A DNA stretch of 10,060 nucleotides from Gemmatimonadota bacterium (GTDB lineage: Bacteria; Gemmatimonadota; Gemmatimonadetes; Longimicrobiales; Gaopeijiaceae). The position numbers and the translations under genes were made by a program. Shown here piece after piece: positions 2 to 9,782 of the stretch (position 1 is the first letter of the stretch; each line of letters begins with the position of its first letter). The stretch lies in contig JBDHHQ010000137.1 in assembly GCA_039589315.1 (NCBI GenBank), positions 1 to 10,060 on the forward strand. The letters run 5' to 3'. Under the pieces are notes generated by a model. The model worked only from the letters and a program-made list of their open reading frames with translations, was not told the DNA's origin and searched no databases.

Positions 2-508
2 TACGTCATCGGGGTCTCGACGATTCCGCGCACCTTGGGCCTGGACGGGCCCGACTTCAACCAGTACCTGGCGGTGGACGGCATCCCCGACATGCTGATC
101 GAGCGCGCCCGGGACCGGGAGCTGGACAGCGAGGCGTGGGAGGAGTACTCCAAGCACATCAAGGCCGTGTTCCAGGTTGGTGAGCGGCGGAGCGGCGGGC
201 TCGACGTGGTCCTGGGCTACCCGGCCGAGCTCGTGCCCCTGGTGAACCCCTACGAGCTGTCGGAGGGCGACGAGATGGTGGTCCAGGCCCTGGTGGACAG
301 CGAACCGGTGGCCGGTCAGCTGGTGCTGGTCGGGGGAGACGGAGACATGGCGGCCGCGGAAGGTCGCACAGACGCGGAGGGCGTGTTCAGCTTCACGCTC
401 GATGCGCCGGGCCGCTGGTACGCCAAGTTCATAAACATGCAGAAGACGGACAGGGAGGGGTTGACCCACGAATCCAAGTGGGCCACGCTGTCCTTCGAGA
501 TTCGCTGA
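2..508 (+). CDS. DUF4198 domain-containing periplasmic protein (Ni/Co-uptake-associated family), 5'-truncated by the window edge
   Basis: The frame is open from base 2 (YVIGVSTIPRTLGLDGPDFNQYL...), so the ORF-track start at 35 is internal. Motifs typical of DUF4198: FNQYLxxDG, EEYSKHIKAVFQVG, LGYPAELVPLVNPYEL, GRTDAEG, GRWYAKFINM and terminal ESKWATLSF. Stop TGA at 506-508. Confidence 0.85.
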   Translation, partial: YVIGVSTIPRTLGLDGPDFNQYLAVDGIPDMLIERARDRELDSEAWEEYSKHIKAVFQVGERRSGGLDVVLGYPAELVPLVNPYELSEGDEMVVQALVDSEPVAGQLVLVGGDGDMAAAEGRTDAEGVFSFTLDAPGRWYAKFINMQKTDREGLTHESKWATLSFEIR

Positions 509-510
509 GG

Positions 511-879
511 CTACTGCGCCGATTCGATGGTGAAATCGAACCGCCCACGCACCGTGTGGTCGTCGATGGGAGCCCCGACCCACGAGAGCGTGTAGGTGCC
601 GGCCGGCATCTCGCCCACGACGCGTGCCCGGATCACCTCCTCCTCGTCACCCGCCTCCATCTCGCCGAGCTCGACGCCGCCTTCGGGACCACGGATTGAG
701 AAGCTGGACCGCGACATGTCCGGCGCGGCGCTGAACTCGAGCCAAACGACCTCCGGCGCCTCCTCCAGCACCTGATCCTCCTTGGGCAGGCTGTCGACCA
801 GGTCGAGGTGGAACGTGGTCCAGGCGCCGAGGATCAAGGTGACGGCGAACAGGGCTGGGATCAGGCGGCGCTGGTTCAT
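511..879 (-). CDS. copC: Copper resistance protein CopC (periplasmic Cu-binding protein), 122 aa
   Basis: Signal peptide followed by HLDLVDSLP...VLEEAPEVVWLEFS and C-terminal GTYTLSWVGAPIDDHTVRGRFDFTI, matching the CopC pattern HxxLxxSxP...GxYxVxWxxxxxDxHxxxGxFxF. SD-like AAGGA upstream on the minus strand. Confidence 0.9.
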   Translation of the reverse strand: MNQRRLIPALFAVTLILGAWTTFHLDLVDSLPKEDQVLEEAPEVVWLEFSAAPDMSRSSFSIRGPEGGVELGEMEAGDEEEVIRARVVGEMPAGTYTLSWVGAPIDDHTVRGRFDFTIESAQ

Positions 880-955: not shown

Positions 956-1020
956 GCGCGAGCAGGTCTTCCGGCGCTGCAGCCCGGCCGACCGGGACGG
1001 TCGTCGACCGAGGGCGAGCC

Positions 1021-1135
1021 ATCCGTGCTGCCCTCCATGCCCGATCCGTGCCGCTCTCCATGCCCGATCCGTGCCGCCTCCATGCCTGAGCCGTGTCGCC
1101 CTCCATGCCCGAGCCGTGTCGGACCGGTGTGCCCG
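1021..1135. repeat. Tandem array of about 5 copies of a 22-24 bp unit (consensus AKCCGTGYCGCCCTCCATGCCCG)
   Basis: Units: 1021-1043 atccgtgctgccctccatgcccg; 1044-1066 atccgtgccgctctccatgcccg; 1067-1088 atccgtgccgcctccatgcctg; 1089-1111 agccgtgtcgccctccatgcccg; 1112-1135 agccgtgtcggaccggtgtgcccg (degenerate). Confidence 0.9.
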
Positions 1136-1171
1136 TGGTCCGTGCACGAGCCGCGACGGGCATCATCGCGG

Positions 1172-1200
1172 TTGACAGCGTTCTCGCCGCCCGGCACCGT
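1172..1200 (+). promoter_or_regulatory. Putative sigma70 promoter for the RAPP leader gene and efflux operon (leaderless geometry)
   Basis: Perfect TTGACA (1172-1177), a 17-bp spacer, then CACCGT (1195-1200; keeps the A2 and T6 of TANNNT). The ATG at 1208 follows after 7 nt. Confidence 0.5.
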
Positions 1201-1207
1201 AGAGGGT

Positions 1208-1552
1208 ATGGACCTGAAGGACATCTCCGGCCGACTCCTCGCGGGGGCGCTCACCGTGCTGCTCACGGTTCCCCTCGCGATTGCGGTGCATCACCACGAG
1301 GCGGAGCACGACGGCGGTGTGCCGCACCTCGAAGTGCCCCACGGTGGCCACGAGAGCCCGGCGCCGGAGCTGTACGATCGGATCACGTCCACTGGGCCTG
1401 AAGGCCCAACGGCCCAGCAGGCCAGCCAAGCCCCGGCGTTCCACGACGGTTTCGTGGTCCGGGTCGTGGCGATTTCACCAGAGCACCCGGACCACCCCGC
1501 CAGGCCACCCCCCGCTCCACACCCCGCACGCGCTCCACCCCTCGGATTCTAG
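1208..1552 (+). CDS. Small His-rich exported/membrane peptide with C-terminal RAPP motif (DUF2946/CruR/CzcI-like leader or arrest peptide), 114 aa
   Basis: MDLKDISGRLLAGALTVLLTVPLAIA (hydrophobic signal/TM) - VHHHEAEHDGGVPHLEVPHGGHES (His cluster) - linker - PEHPDHPARPPPAPHPARAPPLGF*. RAPP is encoded at 1529-1540. This is the 3' part of the 782..1552 ORF, whose upstream extension runs through repeats and the antisense of copC. Confidence 0.75.
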   Translation: MDLKDISGRLLAGALTVLLTVPLAIAVHHHEAEHDGGVPHLEVPHGGHESPAPELYDRITSTGPEGPTAQQASQAPAFHDGFVVRVVAISPEHPDHPARPPPAPHPARAPPLGF

Positions 1553-1728
1553 TGTAGCGGCGCGAGAGCCTGCGCCACTGCACCAAGACGCCACACCGGC
1601 AGGGTCTGGCGGTCGTCGCCCTGTGCCCGTGTCGGTGATCGCGCGTCCTGCCGTCGCACCGCGGCAACGCTCGCACACTGATCGAGCGCGTCCGCGGATC
1701 CCATGGCACACACAGCGGATCCGACACA
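1552..1728 (+). promoter_or_regulatory. Structured spacer between the RAPP peptide gene and the tolC-like gene (candidate attenuator/translational switch)
   Basis: Hairpins seen by eye: 1552-1563/1572-1583, 1589-1597/1603-1611, 1653-1665 and 1668-1673/1683-1688. CGGATCC 1695-1701 pairs with GGATCCG 1717-1723, over the SD-like GGA. An alternative long-range pairing is GTGTCGG 1629-1635 with CCGACAC 1721-1727. Confidence 0.4.
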
Positions 1729-2976
1729 ATGAACCCGAGAATCGCCTTGCTGCTGCTCGTTGTGGCCGAACTGGCCGGCGGTCAGACCGAGGCACGCGCT
1801 CAGGGGTCGCCGACCGAAGTGACCCTCGAGCAGGCGATGGCCCTCTTCAGCCGGCACAGCCCGGAGCTGCAGATCGCCCGCGGTCAGCTCACGGGCTCGC
1901 TGGGAGCCGCCCGACAAGGACGTGCCGTGCCCAACCTCACCGCCTCCTTCACGCACGAGGACCTCGGAGAGTACTCCGAGAGCTATCTGCTCTTCTCCCA
2001 GCGACTCGAGTTCCTGTGGGAGCAGGGCCGCAAGGGAAACCGTGCCGAGGCGTGGAGCGCGGCGGCCACCGCCCGCTTCGCGGCAGACAGCACCCGGTTC
2101 GCAACGGGCATCAAGCGCATCTACGTGGATGCCTGGGCTCGCGGTCAGGCCGTGCAGACGCTGCGCCTGGCCGAGGGAGTGGTGGGTGAGGTCATCGCTT
2201 CTGCGGAGGCTCGTGTGTCCGAGGGCGACCTCGCCGGATACGACCTGAAGCGCCTAGGCTGGGAGCACGCTCGCATGGCCCGACGTCTTGCCGTGGCCGA
2301 GTTGGAGCTCGAGGACGCCGAGCGGCTCCTCGGCTCCTCGGTTTCCGCGAGCGACGCGCAGCTCAGGGTCAGCCCCACCGGTCTGGACACCGACGGACCG
2401 CCCCCGGTTTCCCACCCCGACGTCGTTGGCACGGCGTTGGCGAACCGGGCGGAGCTCCGGGCGGCCCGGGAAACGATAAGGGCGCTGGAAGGGGACGCCA
2501 GTCTCGCCGGTTCGTCCTGGCTGGCGGGAACCAACGTGACGGGTGGCGGAAAGACTCAGTCAGACGGACTGGACGGATGGTTCCTGGGCCTCCAGGTGCC
2601 GCTCCCTCTCACCGACCGACGTGGTGGAGCAAAAGACGCCGCACAGGCCGCCGCAAGTCAGGCCCGGGCTCGCACCGCGCTCCTCACCCGCGTCATCTCC
2701 CGGCAGGTCTCCCTCGCAGAGGCGCGCCTCGCCTCGCTCCACCGTCAGCGGGCGCTGGTGGGCGAAGACGCCGTGGGCGGTGCCGATGAGCTGCTGAACA
2801 TCGCCCGCCTGAGCTACGACGAGGGCGAGGTCGGGATCGTCGAGCTGCTCGACGCCGCACGGGCGTTCGTGGAGGCCCGCCTGCTCTACAGCCAGGTCCA
2901 GGCGGATTCATGGATCGCGTACTTCGAGCTGGAAGCGGCCATGGGCGGGTTTCCGCCGCCGCCGACCCGGGAGTGA
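1729..2976 (+). CDS. czcC: TolC-family outer-membrane efflux channel, CzcC-like, 415 aa
   Basis: Signal peptide (ARA/Q), then VTLEQAMALFSRHSPEL, ARVSEGDLAGYDL, ALANRAELRAA, LGLQVPLPL, ARLSYDEGEVGIVELLDA and ELEAAMG: the two-repeat OEP pattern. It is the first gene of an OMF-MFP-RND operon. The symbol is a family-level label. Confidence 0.9.
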   Translation: MNPRIALLLLVVAELAGGQTEARAQGSPTEVTLEQAMALFSRHSPELQIARGQLTGSLGAARQGRAVPNLTASFTHEDLGEYSESYLLFSQRLEFLWEQGRKGNRAEAWSAAATARFAADSTRFATGIKRIYVDAWARGQAVQTLRLAEGVVGEVIASAEARVSEGDLAGYDLKRLGWEHARMARRLAVAELELEDAERLLGSSVSASDAQLRVSPTGLDTDGPPPVSHPDVVGTALANRAELRAARETIRALEGDASLAGSSWLAGTNVTGGGKTQSDGLDGWFLGLQVPLPLTDRRGGAKDAAQAAASQARARTALLTRVISRQVSLAEARLASLHRQRALVGEDAVGGADELLNIARLSYDEGEVGIVELLDAARAFVEARLLYSQVQADSWIAYFELEAAMGGFPPPPTRE

Positions 2977-2983
2977 GAGACCG

Positions 2984-4477
2984 ATGACAATACGCGAGAC
3001 GCTCACATGCGCTGCGACGATCCTGGCCGCCGCCCTTCTTGTGGGATGCTCGGCCGAGGACGCTACGCTCGCGCAAGCCGATCACGAGCACGGCGGTGGT
3101 GAGGCCATAACGATCTGGACCGACCGCGTCGAGCTCTTCTTCGAGTATCCGCCCATGATCGCGGGTGCCCCGGGCGAGCCGTGGGCAGTTCACCTGACCG
3201 ACCTGTCCACGTTCCAGCCCGTCATTGAGGGAGAGCTGACGCTCGAGCTGGATGGACCGGATGGCCGGCACACCTTTGTCGCCGACGCTCCGGCCAGGGC
3301 AGGGATCTACACCCCGGCGCCCGGCCTACCCATGTCCGGGATGTACGACCTGGTCATGGTGCTGCGCGGGCCCCAGGTCGAGGACGAGATCTTCGTGGGG
3401 CCCATCCAGGTCTTCGCCTCCGAGGAGGACCTGCCACACCTGGAGGAGCCCGAGGCCGTGGGCATCGCCTTCCTCAAGGAGCAGCAGTGGCCCATCGACT
3501 TCGCGACGGCCGAAGCGGAACAGGGCGAGGTGACCGGGGGCTTCGAGGTGACCGGCGAGGTTACCCACGCGCCCGACGCGCTGGTCGAGATTACCGCACC
3601 GGTGGCGGGCATTCTGGGCTTCGACAGGAACCAGAGCGCTCCGGCAGAAGGCGCGCGGGTCAGGGCCGGCCAGGTCCTGGTGAGCCTCTCGCCTGTCGAG
3701 GGAGAGGACACGTATGCTCAGCTTCGCGCCCGCGCCGATCGGTTGGCCCGGGAAGTGGCCCGTCTCGAACGCCTCGTGGCCGCCGAGGCCGTGCCCGCCC
3801 GGCGCCTGGAGGAGTCCCGGCACGACCTGGCGGTGGCCCAGGCGCAGCTCGAGGCGCTGGGCGCCGGCGAGCAGGACGGCTACACGCTCACGCTGCGCTC
3901 TCCCATCGACGGCACCGTGACCCGCCGGGAGTTCGTCCTCGGACAGCGGGTCGACGCGGGGGCGCACCTGCTCACCGTCATGGACGCGCGTCGCCTGCTC
4001 GTTCGCTTTCACGTACCGGCGTCGAGGTCCGGTGCGCTGGCCCGACTGACGGGCGCCACCTTCTCCCCGGAGGGATCCGACGCGGTGATCAGGGCCGACC
4101 GGGTGGTGGCCGTGGGGTCTGTCCTGGACCCCGTGCGCCGCACCGTGCCGGTGACCGTCGAGGTGGACAACCGGGAGGCCCTCCTGAAGGCCGGCATGCT
4201 GGTCACCGGCCGACTCCTGGCCGGTGACGGTGAGACGGGGGTGGTCGTGCCGTCGGAGGCGATCCGCGACGAGGACGGGCTCTTGGTGGCCTACGTCCAG
4301 ATCGGCGGCGAGACCTTCGAGCGGCGGGCCGTCGAGGTCGGAGTGACCGACGGTCAGTGGACCGTGGTTCGCGACGGCGTCCGCCGAGGTGAGCGGGTGG
4401 TCACCCGGGGCGCCTACTCCATCAAGCTGAGCTCCCTCAACACCAGTGAGATCTCCGACCATGGTCACCCCCACTAG
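2984..4477 (+). CDS. czcB: RND efflux periplasmic adaptor (MFP), CzcB/CusB-like lipoprotein with extra N-terminal domain, 497 aa
   Basis: Lipobox LLVG-C. Lipoyl half-motifs ITAPVAG and LRSPIDGTV..GQRV..G flank an alpha-hairpin. Also LDPVRRTVPV, LKAGM, VVVPSEAI, FERRAVEVG and GERVVTRGAY. His tracts DHEHGG (N-terminal) and DHGHPH (C-terminal). The symbol is a family-level label. Confidence 0.92.
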   Translation: MTIRETLTCAATILAAALLVGCSAEDATLAQADHEHGGGEAITIWTDRVELFFEYPPMIAGAPGEPWAVHLTDLSTFQPVIEGELTLELDGPDGRHTFVADAPARAGIYTPAPGLPMSGMYDLVMVLRGPQVEDEIFVGPIQVFASEEDLPHLEEPEAVGIAFLKEQQWPIDFATAEAEQGEVTGGFEVTGEVTHAPDALVEITAPVAGILGFDRNQSAPAEGARVRAGQVLVSLSPVEGEDTYAQLRARADRLAREVARLERLVAAEAVPARRLEESRHDLAVAQAQLEALGAGEQDGYTLTLRSPIDGTVTRREFVLGQRVDAGAHLLTVMDARRLLVRFHVPASRSGALARLTGATFSPEGSDAVIRADRVVAVGSVLDPVRRTVPVTVEVDNREALLKAGMLVTGRLLAGDGETGVVVPSEAIRDEDGLLVAYVQIGGETFERRAVEVGVTDGQWTVVRDGVRRGERVVTRGAYSIKLSSLNTSEISDHGHPH

Positions 4478-4514
4478 GAGTGGCGCCGGACCCGATGCCG
4501 ACGCCCTGACGCTT

Positions 4515-7500
4515 ATGGACCGGGTGATCGCGTGGTCCCTGGGCCACCGGCTGATCACCCTGCTCGGCGCGCTGGGCATCCTGATCGGGGGCGGCGCGGT
4601 GGCGTTGACGATTCCCGTGGACGTGTTCCCGGACCTCACCGCTCCGACCGTCACCGTGCTGGCCGAGGCCCACGGGATGGCCGCGGAGGAAGTGGAGCGG
4701 CTGGTCACGTTTCCCATCGAGACGGCCGTGAACGGCTCGGCCGGGGTGCGCCGCGTGCGCTCCTCTTCGTCCCAGGGCATCGCCATCGTTTGGGTGGAGT
4801 TCGACTGGGGCACGGACATCTATCGGGCGCGTCAGATCGTGGGCGAGAAACTGCAACTGGTCACCGCGCAGCTACCGGAAGACATGCCCCCGCCCGTGCT
4901 GGCGCCCATCACGTCCATCATGGGCGAGATCATGTTGGTGGGCATGACCGGTGAGGGGGTGTCGGAGATGGATGTGCGAACAGAGGCGGACTGGACCGTT
5001 CGCAAGCGCCTCCTGGCCATCTCCGGCGTCTCGCAGGTCATCCCCATCGGCGGTCAGGTGCGGCAGTACCAGGTGCTGGTCGATCCAGGACGGATGGCGG
5101 CGTTGGGGGTGACGCTCACCGAGGTCCTGCGGGCCGCGCGAGAGTCGAACGCCGTCGCCTCCGGGGGCGTGTACCTGTCCGAGGGGATGGAGGTTCTGAT
5201 CCGTGGGTTGGGACGGGCCACATCCACGGACGACATCGCCCAAACGGTGGTCGCCCTCCGGGACGGGACGCCGGTGCGCCTCGCCGAAGTGGCCCGCGTG
5301 GAGATCGGGCCGCGCCCCCGAATCGGAACGGGCTCGGTGAACGCCGGACCGGCGGTGATCCTCTCCGTGCAGAAGCAACCGGGGGTGAACACCCTCGAGC
5401 TCACCGAGCGGATCAACGAGGAGCTCGACGTGCTCCAGGCGCAGCTTCCCCCAGGGATCCGCATCGAACGCGACATCTTCCGTCAGGCCGACTTCATCGA
5501 GCTGGCGGTAGCCAACGTAATGGAGGCCTTGCGCGACGGCGCGATTCTCGTCGTGGTCGTGCTGTTCCTGTTCCTGTGGAACCTCCGGACCACGGGCATA
5601 TCCATCCTGGCGATCCCCCTCTCGCTGGCCGTAGCGGTCATCCTGCTCCGGGTCCTGGGCATCACCATCAACACCATGACGCTGGGCGGCATGGCAATCG
5701 CCATCGGAGCCCTGGTGGACGACGCCATCATCGACGTCGAGAACACGTTCCGCCGCCTGCGCGAGAATCGGCACGCGCCCGAGTCCGAGCGGCGCCCCGC
5801 GCTGCAGGTGACGTACGAGGCCGCCCGGGAGGTGCGCGGTCCCATCGTGAACGCCACCGCGATCATCACGGTGGTGTTCCTGCCGCTGTTCTTCCTGACC
5901 GGAGTGGAGGGCCGGATGCTGAGGCCGCTGGGGCTGGCCTACATCCTCAGCATCCTGGCGTCGCTGGCCGTGGCGGTGACGGTGACCCCCGTGCTCTGCT
6001 ACCTGCTCCTCCCGTCGGCGCGGATCATGGCCGACGATCGGGACAGCTGGCTGGTACGGTGGCTCAAGAACGCCTATCGGCCGTTGCTCGACTCGACCCT
6101 CCGCTTCCCGGTGCCCGTGGCCCTCGTCTCCACGGTGGGCGTGGTCGTGACCCTCGGTGCGTTTCCCTTTCTCGGCCGGGGATTCCTTCCGGAGTTCCAG
6201 GAGGGCACCCTGACGGTGTCCGCCGTCACGGTGCCAGGGACAGGCATCGTGGAGTCGGATCAGCTCGGCAACAGGGTCGAGCAGGTGCTGCTGGCCCATC
6301 CGGCCGTCGTGTCCACCGCTCGGCGCACGGGGCGTGCCGAGTTGGACGAGCACGCACAGGGCGTCAACGCAGCGGAGATCGATGTACGGCTGGACCTGGC
6401 CGTGGGGCCCGTGCACGAGGTGATGGCGGAGCTGCGCGAGCGGGTCACGATCCTCCCGGGCATGAACGTCACGATCGGCCAGCCCATCGGGCACCGCATC
6501 GACCACATGCTGTCGGGCACCCGAGCGGCCATCGCGGTCAAGATCTTCGGTGCGGACCTCTACCGGCTGCGGAGTCTGGGCGAATCGGTCCGCGCCGCGG
6601 TCGAGTCGGTCCCCGGCGTGGTGGACCTGACGGTGGAGCAGCAGTCCGACGTGCCCCAACTTCGCATCCGGGCCGATCGCCCCGCCATGGCGCGGTTCGG
6701 GGTGACCCCCGCGCAGCTGGCCGAGGCCGTGGACGTCGCGTTCAACGGCGAGGTCGTGTCCCAGGTACTCGAAGGACAGAGCGCGTTCGATCTGGTGGTC
6801 CGCTACCCCAGCGAGCTGCGAAACGCCCAGCACCGCATCGCGTCGGCCCGGGTCGACGCGCCACTCGGCGGCAGCGTGCCGGTCTCCGAGCTGGCGGACG
6901 TCGCGCTGGACCGTGGCCCCAACGTCATCAGCCGGGAGGACGTGCAGCGGAAGATCGTGGTGCAGGCCAACGTGCAGGGCAGGGACGTGGGCAGCGTGGT
7001 CGAGGACATCCAATCCCGCGTGTCCTCCGAGGTCCTGCTACCCGACGGCTACTACGTGGAGTACGGCGGTCAGTTCGAGAGCGGCCGAGCCGCGGCCCGA
7101 GCCATCGGATTGCTTTCGCTGGCTGCCGTGGGCGCGATCTTCCTGATCCTGTTCCACGAGTTCGGCAGCGCACGACTCTCGTTGTTGGTCATGGTCAACC
7201 TGCCGCTGGCGCTGATCGGCGGCGTGCTGGCTACGTGGCTCATGGGGGGTGTCCTGAACGTGGCTACGATGGTGGGCTTCGTGACGCTCTTCGGGATCGC
7301 GGTGCGAAACGGCATTCTGCTGGTCAGCCACTACGGCGATCTCCTCGCCGAGGGCAGGCCGCTGAGAGAGGCTGTGGTCCAGGGGTCCATGGAGCGGCTG
7401 AACCCGATCCTCATGACCGCGCTCACGGCGGCGTTGGCGTTGATCCCGCTCGCACTCGGGGGCGGGGAGCCCGGCAAGGAGATCCAGGCACCGCTCGCGT

Positions 7501-7613
7501 TGGTCGTGCTTGGCGGGCTGCTCACGTCCACGTTTCTCAACATGGTCGTGGTGCCCACACTGTACCTGCGGTGGGGTCGTGTGGCGGACTCCGCGGCGCG
7601 AAGCCGGGCCTGA
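4515..7613 (+). CDS. czcA: CusA/CzcA-family heavy-metal efflux RND transporter, about 1032 aa
   Basis: MDRVIAWSLGHR...PVDVFPDLTAPTVTV..EA.GMAAEEVERLVTFPIE; TM4 AIAIGALVDDAIIDVEN; GVEGRMLRPL; FLPEFQEG; GFVTLFGIAVRNGILL; ERLNPILMTALTAALALIPL; GKEIQAPLA. ATG 4515 is preferred over the ORF-track GTG 4446 because HME pumps typically begin at this motif. The symbol is a family-level label. Confidence 0.95.
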   Translation: MDRVIAWSLGHRLITLLGALGILIGGGAVALTIPVDVFPDLTAPTVTVLAEAHGMAAEEVERLVTFPIETAVNGSAGVRRVRSSSSQGIAIVWVEFDWGTDIYRARQIVGEKLQLVTAQLPEDMPPPVLAPITSIMGEIMLVGMTGEGVSEMDVRTEADWTVRKRLLAISGVSQVIPIGGQVRQYQVLVDPGRMAALGVTLTEVLRAARESNAVASGGVYLSEGMEVLIRGLGRATSTDDIAQTVVALRDGTPVRLAEVARVEIGPRPRIGTGSVNAGPAVILSVQKQPGVNTLELTERINEELDVLQAQLPPGIRIERDIFRQADFIELAVANVMEALRDGAILVVVVLFLFLWNLRTTGISILAIPLSLAVAVILLRVLGITINTMTLGGMAIAIGALVDDAIIDVENTFRRLRENRHAPESERRPALQVTYEAAREVRGPIVNATAIITVVFLPLFFLTGVEGRMLRPLGLAYILSILASLAVAVTVTPVLCYLLLPSARIMADDRDSWLVRWLKNAYRPLLDSTLRFPVPVALVSTVGVVVTLGAFPFLGRGFLPEFQEGTLTVSAVTVPGTGIVESDQLGNRVEQVLLAHPAVVSTARRTGRAELDEHAQGVNAAEIDVRLDLAVGPVHEVMAELRERVTILPGMNVTIGQPIGHRIDHMLSGTRAAIAVKIFGADLYRLRSLGESVRAAVESVPGVVDLTVEQQSDVPQLRIRADRPAMARFGVTPAQLAEAVDVAFNGEVVSQVLEGQSAFDLVVRYPSELRNAQHRIASARVDAPLGGSVPVSELADVALDRGPNVISREDVQRKIVVQANVQGRDVGSVVEDIQSRVSSEVLLPDGYYVEYGGQFESGRAAARAIGLLSLAAVGAIFLILFHEFGSARLSLLVMVNLPLALIGGVLATWLMGGVLNVATMVGFVTLFGIAVRNGILLVSHYGDLLAEGRPLREAVVQGSMERLNPILMTALTAALALIPLALGGGEPGKEIQAPLALVVLGGLLTSTFLNMVVVPTLYLRWGRVADSAARSRA

Positions 7614-7622
7614 GGTCGAGCC

Positions 7623-9782
7623 CTGAGACTCCTTCTGATCACACTCGGTGCAGGTCTCGCGGCGGTCAGTGGGCTGGTGGCGCAGGAGCGCCCCCGCGCC
7701 ACCGTAGCCGCGGCGCAGGAGCAGGTGCGCATCGACGGGATCCTGGACGAGCCTTCCTGGGCTTCCGCGACACCACTCGACGCGTTGACCATGATCGAGC
7801 CGGTGGAAGGAGACGTGCCCAGCGCCGCTACCGAGGTCCGGGTCATGGCGGACGTCCACAACCTCTACGTGGGGATCCGGGCCCTTGACGACGACCCGGC
7901 TGGGGTCGTCAGCTATTCCAAGGCCAGGGACAGCCAGCTTCGCTCCGAGGACCACATCAAGCTGATCCTCGATCCGTACCTGGACGGCCAGTCGGGTTAC
8001 GTGTTCGCCATCAACCCGGGCGGCGCTCGCTACGATGCCTTGGTGGCGGATCAGGGAACGGGTGAGAATCCCAGCTGGGATGCGGTCTGGGAAGCTGCCA
8101 CACGGTTGACACGAGAGGGATGGGTGGCTGAGATCAGGATTCCCGTTCAGAGCATCACCTTCGACCGTTCGCTCGATGCCTGGGGCTTCAACGTGGAGCG
8201 GCGAGTCCAGCGTTCCCTCGAGGTAAGCCGGTGGGCCAGTCCTCGCAGGGACGCCCTCATTGCCCAGACCAGCCGGGCGGGCCTCATCACGGACCTTCCC
8301 CGGTTCGACCAAGGGGTCGGCCTCACCGTGCGCCCTTCCCTGGTCGGCGACGTGGAGACGGTCGGACCGGACGGCAGTTCGGCCGCGGGCGTGGAGCCGA
8401 GCCTGGACGTGTTCCAGAGGATCGGGTCCAACGCCACCGCCGTTCTTACAGTGAACACCGACTTCGCCGAGACAGAGGTCGACACCCGCCGGACCAACCT
8501 GACCCGCTTCCCCCTCTTCTTCCCCGAGAAGCGGATCTTCTTCCTCGACGGCGTAGACATCTTCGACTTCGGGGCCGGACTTGCCACCTTCCACTCCCCG
8601 GACATCGTTCCCTTCTTCACGCGACGGATCGGCCTGTACGAGGGAGAGCAGGTTCCGGTTCGCGTCGGAGGGAAGGTGAGTGGTCGACAGGGCCGGACCA
8701 ACTTCGGCGGATTGATCACGAGCACCGGCTCGGTCGAGGACCTGGTGGACGGGACCGAGATGGGCGCCTTCCGGGTGAAGCAGAATATCCTGGAGCAATC
8801 CAGCACGGGGATCCTGGCCACGTTCGGGGATCCAGCCGGCCGGTCCGGAAGCTACACGGCCGGTGCAGACTTCATCTTCAACACGTCCCACTTCCTGGGA
8901 TCGAGGAATCTGATCGTGGGCGCGTGGGGGCTGGTAACCGGGCGTGAGGATCTCAGAGGAGACCGGACGGCATTTGGGTTCATCGTGGACTACCCCAATG
9001 ACGTCTGGGATCTGTGGGTCTCGTACAAGCGAATCGGTGACGGCTTCGATCCGTCGTTGGGCTTCGTCCCGCGCAGGGGAGTCCACCTGGCCAACGCGGG
9101 GATCAACTACCGCCTCTGGTCCCCTATACCGTCGGTTCGGAATCTCTACTTCGAGCTGGTACCCATCTTCGCTTGGGACCTCTCCGGCGAGCTCGAGAGC
9201 TACCGCATCTTCACCGCACCGGTGAACGTCCGCTTCGAGAGCGGAGACCGCTTCGAGTTCAACGTCCAGCCGCAGGGCGAGCGGCTTCCGGTCCCATTCG
9301 AGATCGCCGAGGGCGTCGTCATTCCCGTCGGCAGCTACGATTGGGTGCGGTACCGAGCCGAATTGGATCTGGCGAGCAAGCGACTCGTCAGCGGGCGCGT
9401 TTCATGGTGGTTCGGCCCGTTCTACGACGGGGACCTGAGCGAGCTCTCGGCGCGGATCGCGATCAACCCGTCGGACCTCATCAATGTCGAGCTCACCGGC
9501 ACCCGAAACGACGGCTCGCTGCCCGCCGGCGATTTCGTGCAGGAGATCGTCGGTGCACGAATCCGGGTCAACTTCTCCCCGGATCTCCAGCTCAGCTCTC
9601 TGGGCCAATACGAGCGGGAGCGGGGTGAGTTCGGGGCCAATACCCGGCTCCGCTGGACCTTTCACCCCCTGGGTGACCTCTTCGTGGTCTACAACTACAA
9701 CGCGCTGGACGAAATCGGCCGAGGGTGGCAGCTCGACTCCAGTCAACTGCTGGTCAAGGTGCAATACGCTCTGAGGTATTGA
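7623..9782 (+). CDS. DUF5916 domain protein with N-terminal CBM9-like domain (probable outer-membrane beta-barrel), about 719 aa with a CTG start
   Basis: [33 protein letters not shown]......[30 protein letters not shown]...[33 protein letters not shown]-terminal beta-signal-like [11 protein letters not shown]. The start is inferred at CTG 7623, which restores a signal peptide and has an SD at 7612-7616. The ORF track starts at GTG 7677. Confidence 0.85.

What the first reader, a model, noticed from the sequence alone, without database searches (positions are those of the whole stretch)
1208..1552. Cys-free, His-rich RAPP arrest-peptide candidate heading a heavy-metal efflux operon
Seen: a 114-aa ORF with a signal/TM segment, a His cluster (HHHEAEH..H..H..H), a linker and a Pro-rich tail RPPPAPHPARAPPLGF, directly upstream of czcCBA-like genes. 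Established: RAPP-type motifs stall ribosomes (ApdA/ApdP class). The DUF2946 uORF CruR of Bordetella uses TM + CxxC + RAPP to control a downstream copper-uptake gene. Inference: this peptide has the same architecture but no Cys at all, so His ligands may sense Ni/Co/Zn co-translationally during export. Because the downstream genes are for efflux rather than uptake, the switch polarity may be opposite to CruR. That would be a nascent-chain metal sensor, and no transcriptional regulator gene is visible in the window.
Basis: partly seen in the sequence, partly recalled or inferred. Interest (0 to 1): 0.85.

Follow-up and report, generated by a model that had tools for sequence, protein, structure and literature searches.

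The report
Histidine stalling leader before metal pump
A short gene with a histidine cluster and the ribosome-stalling motif Arg-Ala-Pro-Pro sits, conserved across many related bacteria, in front of a heavy-metal efflux pump and likely acts as a built-in metal sensor that would switch the pump on by pausing its own ribosome: an untested, cysteine-free version of a recently described copper-sensing trick.

Summary
The ORF is real and conserved. It has a hydrophobic N-terminus, invariant His34/40/48, no Cys pair, and RAPP near the stop in 65 of 70 homologs. All 30 loci fetched lie before tolC. The pump is NieA/HME5-like (putative Ni), not CzcA.

Added here:
- a second R-x-PP motif 8-10 codons earlier (68/70);
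- a fixed His-to-RAPP distance of 56-62 residues (67/70);
- a TTGAC box 34-39 nt before the ATG (27/30), predicting a leaderless mRNA;
- synonymous C-over-G bias in the last 20 codons (0.75 vs 0.46-0.51), resembling CruR's Rho site.

Best reading: metal prolongs the stall, the ribosome shields the C-rich patch, and the pump is made. Stalling, metal identity and polarity are untested.

The concept is in print. CutF is a metal-induced version, efflux genes are common neighbours of CutF-like leaders, and a 2025 source table lists RAPP leaders before tolC, including a member of this family. It is not DUF2946 (no HMM hit, no CxxC). The scan noted this kind of leader at least 8 times on other DNA.

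Verdict: new variant of a known kind, interest 0.45.

The parts
1172..1207 (+). Predicted sigma-70-type promoter: -35 TTGACA at 1172-1177 and a weak -10 (CACCGT) at 1195-1200; predicted start of transcription at or next to the ATG (leaderless mRNA)
   Evidence: TTGAC 34-39 nt before the leader ATG in 27 of 30 loci against 16 of 2766 rough ORFs of this genome. The start site is inferred; the consensus scan did not call this promoter.
1208..1552 (+). Leader ORF, 114 aa, Cys-free
1235..1288 (+). Hydrophobic export signal or anchor (residues 10-27), with Pro22 and A-I-A 24-26 as a possible signal-peptidase site
   Evidence: Hydropathy (34 of 36 full-length homologs have such a segment); helix 3-27 in the AlphaFold model. 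Cleavage is inferred; no signal-peptide predictor was available.
1289..1351 (+). His cluster H28-H48; core D-H-D/E-G..H-x-E..H-G-G-H; putative metal site
   Evidence: H34, H40, H48 invariant; G36, E42, H45, G46 at least 90% conserved in 40 sequences
1490..1549 (+). C-rich, G-poor, weakly folding mRNA patch over the last 20 codons (36 C, 10 G); candidate Rho-loading site and possible anti-SD
1502..1513 (+). First proline motif R99-P-P-P, nine codons before RAPP
   Evidence: An R-x-PP-type motif lies 8-10 codons before the last motif in 68 of 70 sequences, and is itself RAPP in 37
1529..1540 (+). RAPP arrest motif; by analogy with the CruR toeprint the stall would have Pro110 (1535-1537) in the P site and Pro111 (1538-1540) in the A site
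   Evidence: toeprint geometry from PMC12992588
1552..1582 (+). Hairpin directly behind the stop codon
   Evidence: -20.3 kcal/mol, z -3.85; z<-1 in 26 of 32 family loci but only 7 of 19 in the pump-picked set; one U-A to C-G change against the same-genus locus
1553..1728 (+). 176-nt intergenic region with further hairpins; weak SD-like GGA inside a GGATCC stem before the tolC start
   Evidence: 93-176 nt in the family
1729..2976 (+). TolC-family outer-membrane efflux protein
   Evidence: PF02321
2984..4477 (+). RND periplasmic adaptor
   Evidence: TIGR01730 over cut-off
4446..7613 (+). Heavy-metal RND transporter, NieA/HME5-like (frame open from 4446; likely start 4515)
   Evidence: TIGR00914 over cut-off; HAQGVN, HRIDH and AIG-x3-DDA-x3-VEN against NieA HAEGVH, HRLDH and the same TM4 consensus
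511..879 (-). Divergent CopC-like periplasmic metal-binding protein
   Evidence: PF04234, E 2e-14; seen beside the leader in several relatives

Best explanation
This conserved leader gene likely works as a nascent-chain metal switch: its ribosome is predicted to stall at RAPP, and metal (most likely Ni or Co, possibly Cu(II) or Zn) bound by the histidine cluster would prolong the stall and so keep the efflux operon on. Steps. (1) Shown: the ORF, its motifs, their spacing and the position before tolC are conserved. (2) Inferred: a promoter fires at the ATG, so the first ribosome rides close behind RNA polymerase. (3) Inferred: the hydrophobic N-terminus takes the chain to SecYEG. At the stall the His cluster is 62-82 residues from the P-site, which places it at the periplasmic mouth of the translocon. 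(4) Inferred: without metal the unfolded chain is pulled through, the stall is released, the ribosome leaves, the C-rich tail is exposed and Rho ends transcription in the 176-nt spacer. (5) Least certain: with metal, the bound cluster resists or slackens the pull, the ribosome stays on the C-rich patch, and tolC-MFP-RND is transcribed and translated. Odds by step: regulatory stalling leader about 0.85; metal sensing through His about 0.75; metal = ON about 0.6; this whole chain with a Rho output 0.45.
For: Family conservation. TolC downstream in 30 of 30 fetched loci, and a 62-81% identical RND in 20 of 20 genomes tested. Picking loci by the pump alone, 19 of 38 informative loci have a His-rich RAPP leader, with His-pair-to-Arg distance 54-63 in 17 of 19 although leader length varies. 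Fourfold third positions in the last 20 codons have C/(C+G) 0.75 against 0.46-0.51 elsewhere, higher than tolC in 28 of 32 loci, and 0.65 against 0.47 in the pump-picked set: selection on the RNA, like CruR's C>G bubble (PMC9426467). The spacer is 93-176 nt, like CruR's 162 nt; PMC9973294 says stem-loop melting is likely limited to short spacers. Rho is present over cut-off. Periplasmic folding forces appear about 70 residues from the PTC, and helices reach SecYEG at 45-50 (bioRxiv 2021.02.06.430026). In CruR and CutF the stall turns downstream genes on. No MerR, ArsR, CsoR, NikR or Fur family hit among 98 flanking ORFs picked from 10 loci. In L141 a Cys/Met-rich leader heads a divergent second RND operon, back to back with the His leader.
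Against: No stall, metal binding, transcript or termination was measured. Polarity rests on the pump being an exporter. Simple force logic says metal-induced folding at the translocon exit should pull and RELEASE the stall, as proposed for CruR, and the disulfide explanation given for CutF cannot apply to a Cys-free peptide. The neighbours include uptake-type or homeostasis genes: DUF4198 and CopC here, HupE/UreJ behind the pump in L143. The pump has two of NieA's three motif His, and NieA's nickel role is itself a proposal. 17 of 38 pump loci show no such leader. The tail's weak folding is explained by composition (median z about 0). The loci are related genomes, not independent samples.
Confidence: 0.45

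Rival explanations
1. Same sensing and polarity, but the output is translational: when no ribosome sits on the leader's tail, the C-rich codons pair with the tolC Shine-Dalgarno; a stalled ribosome frees it (CutF/SecM style).
For: Masking the tail as a stalled ribosome would lowers the computed cost of opening the SD zone by more than 1 kcal/mol in 24 of 32 loci and raises it in 4; medians 8.7 and 5.4.
Against: The effect is barely specific: native tails beat synonymous recodings in 23 of 32 and tails swapped between loci in only 19 of 32, and the pairing register differs from locus to locus. In this window there is no computed switch (4.9 vs 5.2). RNAalifold found no consensus pairs in 23 aligned spacers.
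Confidence: 0.15
2. CruR polarity: metal binding folds the His cluster, pulls, and releases the stall, so the operon is on when metal is scarce (the pump would then serve metal delivery or homeostasis, not detoxification).
For: RAPP motif, long spacer and C>G patch all resemble CruR more than CutF. Folding at about 70 residues from the PTC generates pull. DUF4198 and HupE/UreJ neighbours; published His-only CutF-like clusters precede HupE/UreJ genes.
Against: The target is an RND of the CusA/CzcA family, and its characterised HME5 relatives NrsA and CopA are described as resistance pumps.
Confidence: 0.17
3. An arrest peptide that monitors export capacity or simply couples translation to transcription, the histidines having no sensing role.
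For: RAPP peptides of the ApdA/ApdP type monitor protein localisation (PMC12992588); the operon encodes three envelope proteins.
Against: Three His are invariant where the linker is free; all 19 leaders found by the pump are His-rich; no sec or yidC gene follows.
Confidence: 0.13
4. A small secreted metal-binding peptide or chaperone that works in trans; the proline tail is incidental.
For: Export signal plus His cluster; CutF was first thought to be a chaperone.
Against: The model is unstructured beyond the N-terminal helix (pTM 0.29). RAPP position, spacing and the RNA-level bias are conserved while the linker sequence is not.
Confidence: 0.1

Closest known systems
CruR (Bp2923, DUF2946), PMC9426467; arrest shown in vitro in PMC12992588
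   Same: First gene of the operon, export signal, C-terminal RAPP 3 residues from the end, fixed metal-site-to-RAPP spacing, long spacer (176 vs 162 nt), C>G patch
   Different: His cluster instead of CxxC; spacing 56-62 instead of about 45; no Pfam hit; target is an efflux RND, not a TonB-dependent importer; CruR has a 45-nt leader, this mRNA is predicted leaderless
CutF of Rhodobacter capsulatus and the 'CutF-like' class, PMC9973294 and bioRxiv 10.1101/2025.02.05.636593
   Same: Small exported leader with a Pro-rich tail before a metal-detoxification gene; meets the paper's four filters; efflux genes are named first among neighbours of the class; metal-ON logic
   Different: No CxxxC and no disulfides; RAPP rather than PPP; long spacer with no computed SD switch here; the paper's His-only clusters (14, 17) precede HupE/UreJ, not RND pumps
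RAPP/RGPP uORF survey, PMC12992588 source data for Fig. 4B
   Same: Lists RAPP uORFs before TolC (530 vs 380 AAPP), RND adaptors (620 vs 148) and CusA/CzcA (50 vs 7); many rows seen are His-rich and Cys-free; row MSR21050.1 carries this family's signature
   Different: Anonymous rows: the main text has no occurrence of 'efflux' and does not describe or test this group
nieIC-cep-nieBA of Cupriavidus neocaledonicus (HME5-type), PMC7060636
   Same: Same TM4 consensus, HRxDH motif, and a small gene annotated nieI at the head of the operon
   Different: HAQGVN instead of HAEGVH; no cep gene; the nieI sequence was not compared here
CzcI of Cupriavidus metallidurans
   Same: Small gene upstream of a metal RND operon, suggested to be a metal-sensing regulator (as stated in PMC9973294)
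   Different: CzcI is said there to lack a C-terminal proline motif; no NCBIfam or Pfam hit links this peptide to it

Membership tests
DUF2946 / CruR | Match to the Pfam DUF2946 profile | tested here: not met
   0 of 40 members hit it at E<=1; P0001 has no Pfam or NCBIfam hit
DUF2946 / CruR | CxxC motif | tested here: not met
   0 of 40 with CxxC or CxxxC; 27 of 40 without any Cys
DUF2946 / CruR | C-terminal RAPP | tested here: met
   RAPP 65, RPPP 4, RSPP 1 of 70
DUF2946 / CruR | Metal-site-to-RAPP spacing of about 45 residues | tested here: not met
   Fixed but longer: 56-62 in 67 of 70
DUF2946 / CruR | C>G bubble at the 3' end and long spacer | tested here: met
DUF2946 / CruR | Rho-dependent termination controlled by metal | not testable with these tools
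   Rho gene present; no functional data
CutF-like class (PMC9973294 filters) | <150 aa, PP in the last 15 residues, same-strand gene within 1000 nt | tested here: met
CutF-like class (PMC9973294 filters) | N-terminal signal peptide | tested here: inconclusive
   Hydrophobic segment in 34 of 36; cleavage could not be predicted
CutF-like class (PMC9973294 filters) | Retrieved by the paper's jackhmmer profiles or placed in one of its 29 clusters | not testable with these tools
   The paper's protein list and logos were not read; only the list of three held supplements was seen
CutF (strict) | Stem-loop over the downstream SD that a stalled ribosome opens | tested here: inconclusive
   No computed switch in this locus; weak, barely specific trend in the family
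RAPP arrest peptides (ApdA/ApdP type) | Measured elongation arrest at RAPP | not testable with these tools
   Motif only
RAPP arrest peptides (ApdA/ApdP type) | Upstream of sec/yidC genes | tested here: not met
   tolC follows in 30 of 30 loci
HME5 / NieA-type RND (downstream pump) | TM4 consensus AIG-x3-DDA-x3-VEN | tested here: met
   Seen in the window's pump and in 19 of 20 orthologue loci; 1 not read by the script; reference rows
HME5 / NieA-type RND (downstream pump) | HAEGVH and HRLDH His motifs | tested here: inconclusive
   HRIDH met; HAQGVN lacks the third His
HME5 / NieA-type RND (downstream pump) | Nickel export | not testable with these tools
   Only proposed for NieA

The most novel reading that the evidence does not exclude
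A non-copper nascent-chain metal sensor: a leaderless, Cys-free peptide with two stall motifs nine codons apart and a fixed 57-60-residue ruler holds its His cluster at the translocon mouth, reads periplasmic Ni/Co, and turns on an HME5 efflux pump by blocking Rho. It would join CruR's output to CutF's polarity by a force mechanism that neither model explains.
Probability: 0.33. Interest if true: 0.75.

Novelty: new variant of a known kind. Interest (0 to 1): 0.45.

Why it matters
Both nascent-chain metal sensors characterised in the papers read here (CruR, CutF) use cysteines and copper. How metal binding changes a stall is stated as open in both. A Cys-free family with a tight spacing rule, tied to one pump clade, removes the disulfide explanation and gives a clean way to ask whether metal binding pulls on the chain or slackens it. 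It would also give a regulatory mechanism and a substrate clue for the little-studied HME5/NieA pumps, and a possible genetically encoded Ni/Co sensor. The general idea is already published and catalogued, so the value lies in testability, not surprise.

Tried and rejected
Pfam and NCBIfam scans gave no family for the leader. ESM Atlas: the top 30 hits have no common Pfam family; the nearest named cluster (DUF6769, score 0.94, 94 of 256 shared features) is a lead only. AlphaFold2 gave only the N-terminal helix (pTM 0.29), so no fold search was run. RNAalifold on a MAFFT alignment of 23 spacers gave 0 pairs; the hairpins differ in length and the alignment was not structure-aware, so this neither shows nor excludes a shared shape. 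A specific tail-SD switch did not pass the swap control. The promoter/terminator consensus scan found nothing in 1-2400, so no intrinsic terminator is predicted in the spacer. No RNA holder was listed for the locus. The metagenome scan with the wide alignment could not be run, so metagenome loci were not sampled. The idea that the 9-codon spacing of the two proline motifs holds a queued second ribosome was considered and left as speculation: it rests on recalled footprint sizes and no call tests it. An N-terminal ATCUN site after signal cleavage was considered and dropped: His28-30 are not invariant. Chance as the origin of RAPP was rejected. A sequence look-up in the scan's earlier findings returned nothing for this family.

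Full report
1. Observation. The window is a whole contig (G000:C137); the named relatives returned are Gemmatimonadota/Longimicrobiales. Positions 1208-1552 give the 114-aa Cys-free peptide described: hydrophobic residues 10-28, His at 28-30, 34, 40, 45 and 48, R99-PPP, and R108-APP at 1529-1540. TolC (1729-2976), an adaptor (2984-4477) and a CusA/CzcA-family RND over cut-off follow 176 nt later; a copC-like gene lies divergently. RAPP alone would prove little: 527 of 106,146 frames in this genome end with R[AG]PP within 15 residues.

2. It is a conserved gene. Two searches gave 39 homologs. In the 40-row alignment H34, H40, H48, P101, P102, R108, P110 and P111 are invariant at 27% mean column identity. 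The profile matched 38 of 401 genomes of the order; the best 30 of 40 places were fetched and all 30 have a TolC match downstream on the same strand, one partial and one after a 950-nt gap. Among 70 distinct sequences (73 before removing duplicates) the last motif is RAPP in 65, RPPP in 4 and RSPP in 1. A second R-x-PP-type motif lies 8-10 codons earlier in 68. The last cluster His is 56-62 residues before the Arg in 67. RAPP codons vary synonymously, and this locus differs from its same-genus relative at 36 synonymous against 23 non-synonymous codons. No row has CxxC or CxxxC, and no member hits DUF2946. AlphaFold finds only the N-terminal helix.

3. Converse test. The pump matched 60 of 301 genomes of the phylum. 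I fetched the upstream DNA of 40 of the 63 non-self places. Two were cut by contig ends. Of 38, 19 have a His-rich leader ending in R-x-PP, 2 have a His-rich leader without the Arg, and 17 show none with my filters. In the 19 the His-pair-to-Arg distance is 54-63 in 17, with no CxxC. So the leader is common but not universal for this pump.

4. The pump. Orthologues of 62-81% identity occur in 20 of 20 leader-bearing genomes tested. They carry HAQG[VAT]N, HRIDH and AIG-x3-DDA-x3-VEN, against NieA's HAEGVH, HRLDH and the same TM4 consensus (PMC7060636 supplement rows). That paper classes NieA as HME5-type and proposes nickel export, untested. 'czc' is therefore a loose label; Ni/Co is the best guess, and the CopC neighbour keeps Cu(II) in play.

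5. (a) TTGAC lies 34-39 nt before the leader's ATG in 27 of 30 loci (here TTGACA at 1172, 36 nt before). The background is 16 of 2766 rough ORFs. I chose the ATGs by hand among the candidates, with the upstream sequence in view. Two of the 32 loci were left out: one cut, and one without an ATG in range that has the box 36 nt before a GTG. This predicts a leaderless mRNA. The bases between the box and the -10 region vary, so no shared operator is visible, and none of 98 flanking ORFs picked from 10 loci hit a metal-repressor family; a few unrelated two-component genes lie nearby. (b) In the last 20 codons, fourfold third positions are C over G at 0.75, against 0.46, 0.50 and 0.51 in the linker, the early part and tolC; higher than tolC in 28 of 32 loci and 0.65 against 0.47 in the pump-picked set. 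This matches the unstructured C>G patch that serves as CruR's Rho site, and Rho is present. (c) A hairpin follows the stop directly: z -3.85 here, z<-1 in 26 of 32, but only 7 of 19 in the second set, and RNAalifold found no consensus. (d) Masking the tail eases SD opening in 24 of 32 loci, but not in this one, and the swap control gives only 19 of 32. One of the 30 loci (the interrupted one) was dropped from the RNA tests and three were added. These genomes are kin, so counts overstate independence.

6. Mechanism. With Pro110 in the P site, as toeprinted for CruR, the His cluster is 62-82 residues out. Helices reach SecYEG at 45-50 residues, and periplasmic folding pulls at about 70, so the cluster would sit at the periplasmic mouth (inference). 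In both tested systems the stall turns the next genes on, and both RNA readings here point the same way. For an exporter, metal must then prolong the stall. That is the weak link. Folding at the translocon exit would be expected to pull and release, and the disulfide model offered for CutF is not open to this peptide. I commit to metal-ON with a Rho output at 0.45. The rivals are SD output 0.15, CruR polarity 0.17, metal-independent monitoring 0.13 and a trans-acting peptide 0.10.

7. What is in print. PMC9426467 (parts 1-4 of 7 read): CruR; it names CutF as a possible activating uORF. PMC9973294 (passages and part 4 of 9; supplements only listed): CutF is Cu-induced, efflux genes are named first among neighbours, and His-only clusters precede HupE/UreJ. 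bioRxiv 2025.02.05.636593 (abstract and Discussion; supplements closed). PMC12992588 (passages; rows of supplement file 8, which is stored cut; file 10 and four larger files not seen): TolC 530 RAPP vs 380 AAPP, adaptor 620 vs 148, CusA/CzcA 50 vs 7. Many of the 30 TolC rows shown are His-rich and Cys-free, and MSR21050.1 has this family's signature; 'efflux' does not occur in the main text. PMC7060636 (passages, section 18, supplement rows) and bioRxiv 2021.02.06.430026 (passages). Searches listed no paper that describes or tests a His-only RAPP leader of an efflux pump; (Gemmatimonadota, RAPP, arrest peptide, heavy metal efflux; 3 of 4 terms) found none. Subscription journals are not covered, and the unseen supplements could list this family further. 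The scan's own notes hold at least 8 findings of this kind in other genomes and none on this sequence; they gave me the lead to the 2025 preprint and to the survey tables, both then checked.

8. Verdict. It works like CruR/CutF and meets the CutF-like filters that could be tested, but it is not a DUF2946 member. The class is published and catalogued; the Cys-free chemistry before an HME5 pump, the spacing rule, the tandem motif, the predicted leaderless start and the RNA bias were not found described. New variant of a known kind, interest 0.45; 0.75 if the non-copper, metal-ON, Rho-blocking reading (probability about 0.33) is shown.

Noticed in passing
window 1009-1159: Four to five imperfect 22-23-nt tandem copies (TCCATGCCCGAGCCGTGTCGG type) between the divergent copC start and the -35 box; the same-genus locus L035 is shorter here and does not show the array.
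   Followed up: partly
window 511-879 (-): CopC-like protein with His right after the predicted signal and a D-D-H near the C-terminus, which by recall fits the Cu(II)-type site; divergent from the leader in several relatives.
   Followed up: partly
window 2-508 (+) and 7677-9782 (+): DUF4198 gene converging on copC, also present in L035, L036 and L007; a DUF5916/CBM9-like gene follows the pump.
   Followed up: no
L141:4571-5011 (-): A Cys/Met-rich leader ending FHPPRA heads a second, divergent TolC-MFP-RND operon, back to back with the His leader: two leader chemistries at one locus.
   Followed up: partly
L137:10029-10406 (-) / L063: A DDE transposase fragment lies between the leader and tolC (about 950 nt gap), uncoupling them.
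   Followed up: no
L143:2070-4025 (-): SnoaL-like, HupE/UreJ and an unnamed membrane-protein gene follow the pump in the same direction.
   Followed up: partly
L125:1140-1638 and L126:1014-1623 (oriented coordinates): His-rich exported leaders before the same pump clade that end in LTDLSPP[IT]A, without the Arg: a possible other arrest motif.
   Followed up: no
L098-L102, L104, L105, L108, L109, L111, L118, L121, L127-L130, L133: 17 loci of the same pump clade with no leader found; 7 of them also show no TolC-length ORF before the adaptor. How they are controlled is unknown.
   Followed up: no
G000:C134 and G000:C53: Two other CusA/CzcA-family pumps in this genome; no His-RAPP leader was seen before them; the C53 operon is preceded by a small ORF that looks like a CsoR-type repressor by eye.
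   Followed up: partly
G000:C32:25709-26818: A second, below-cut-off Rho-like gene.
   Followed up: no
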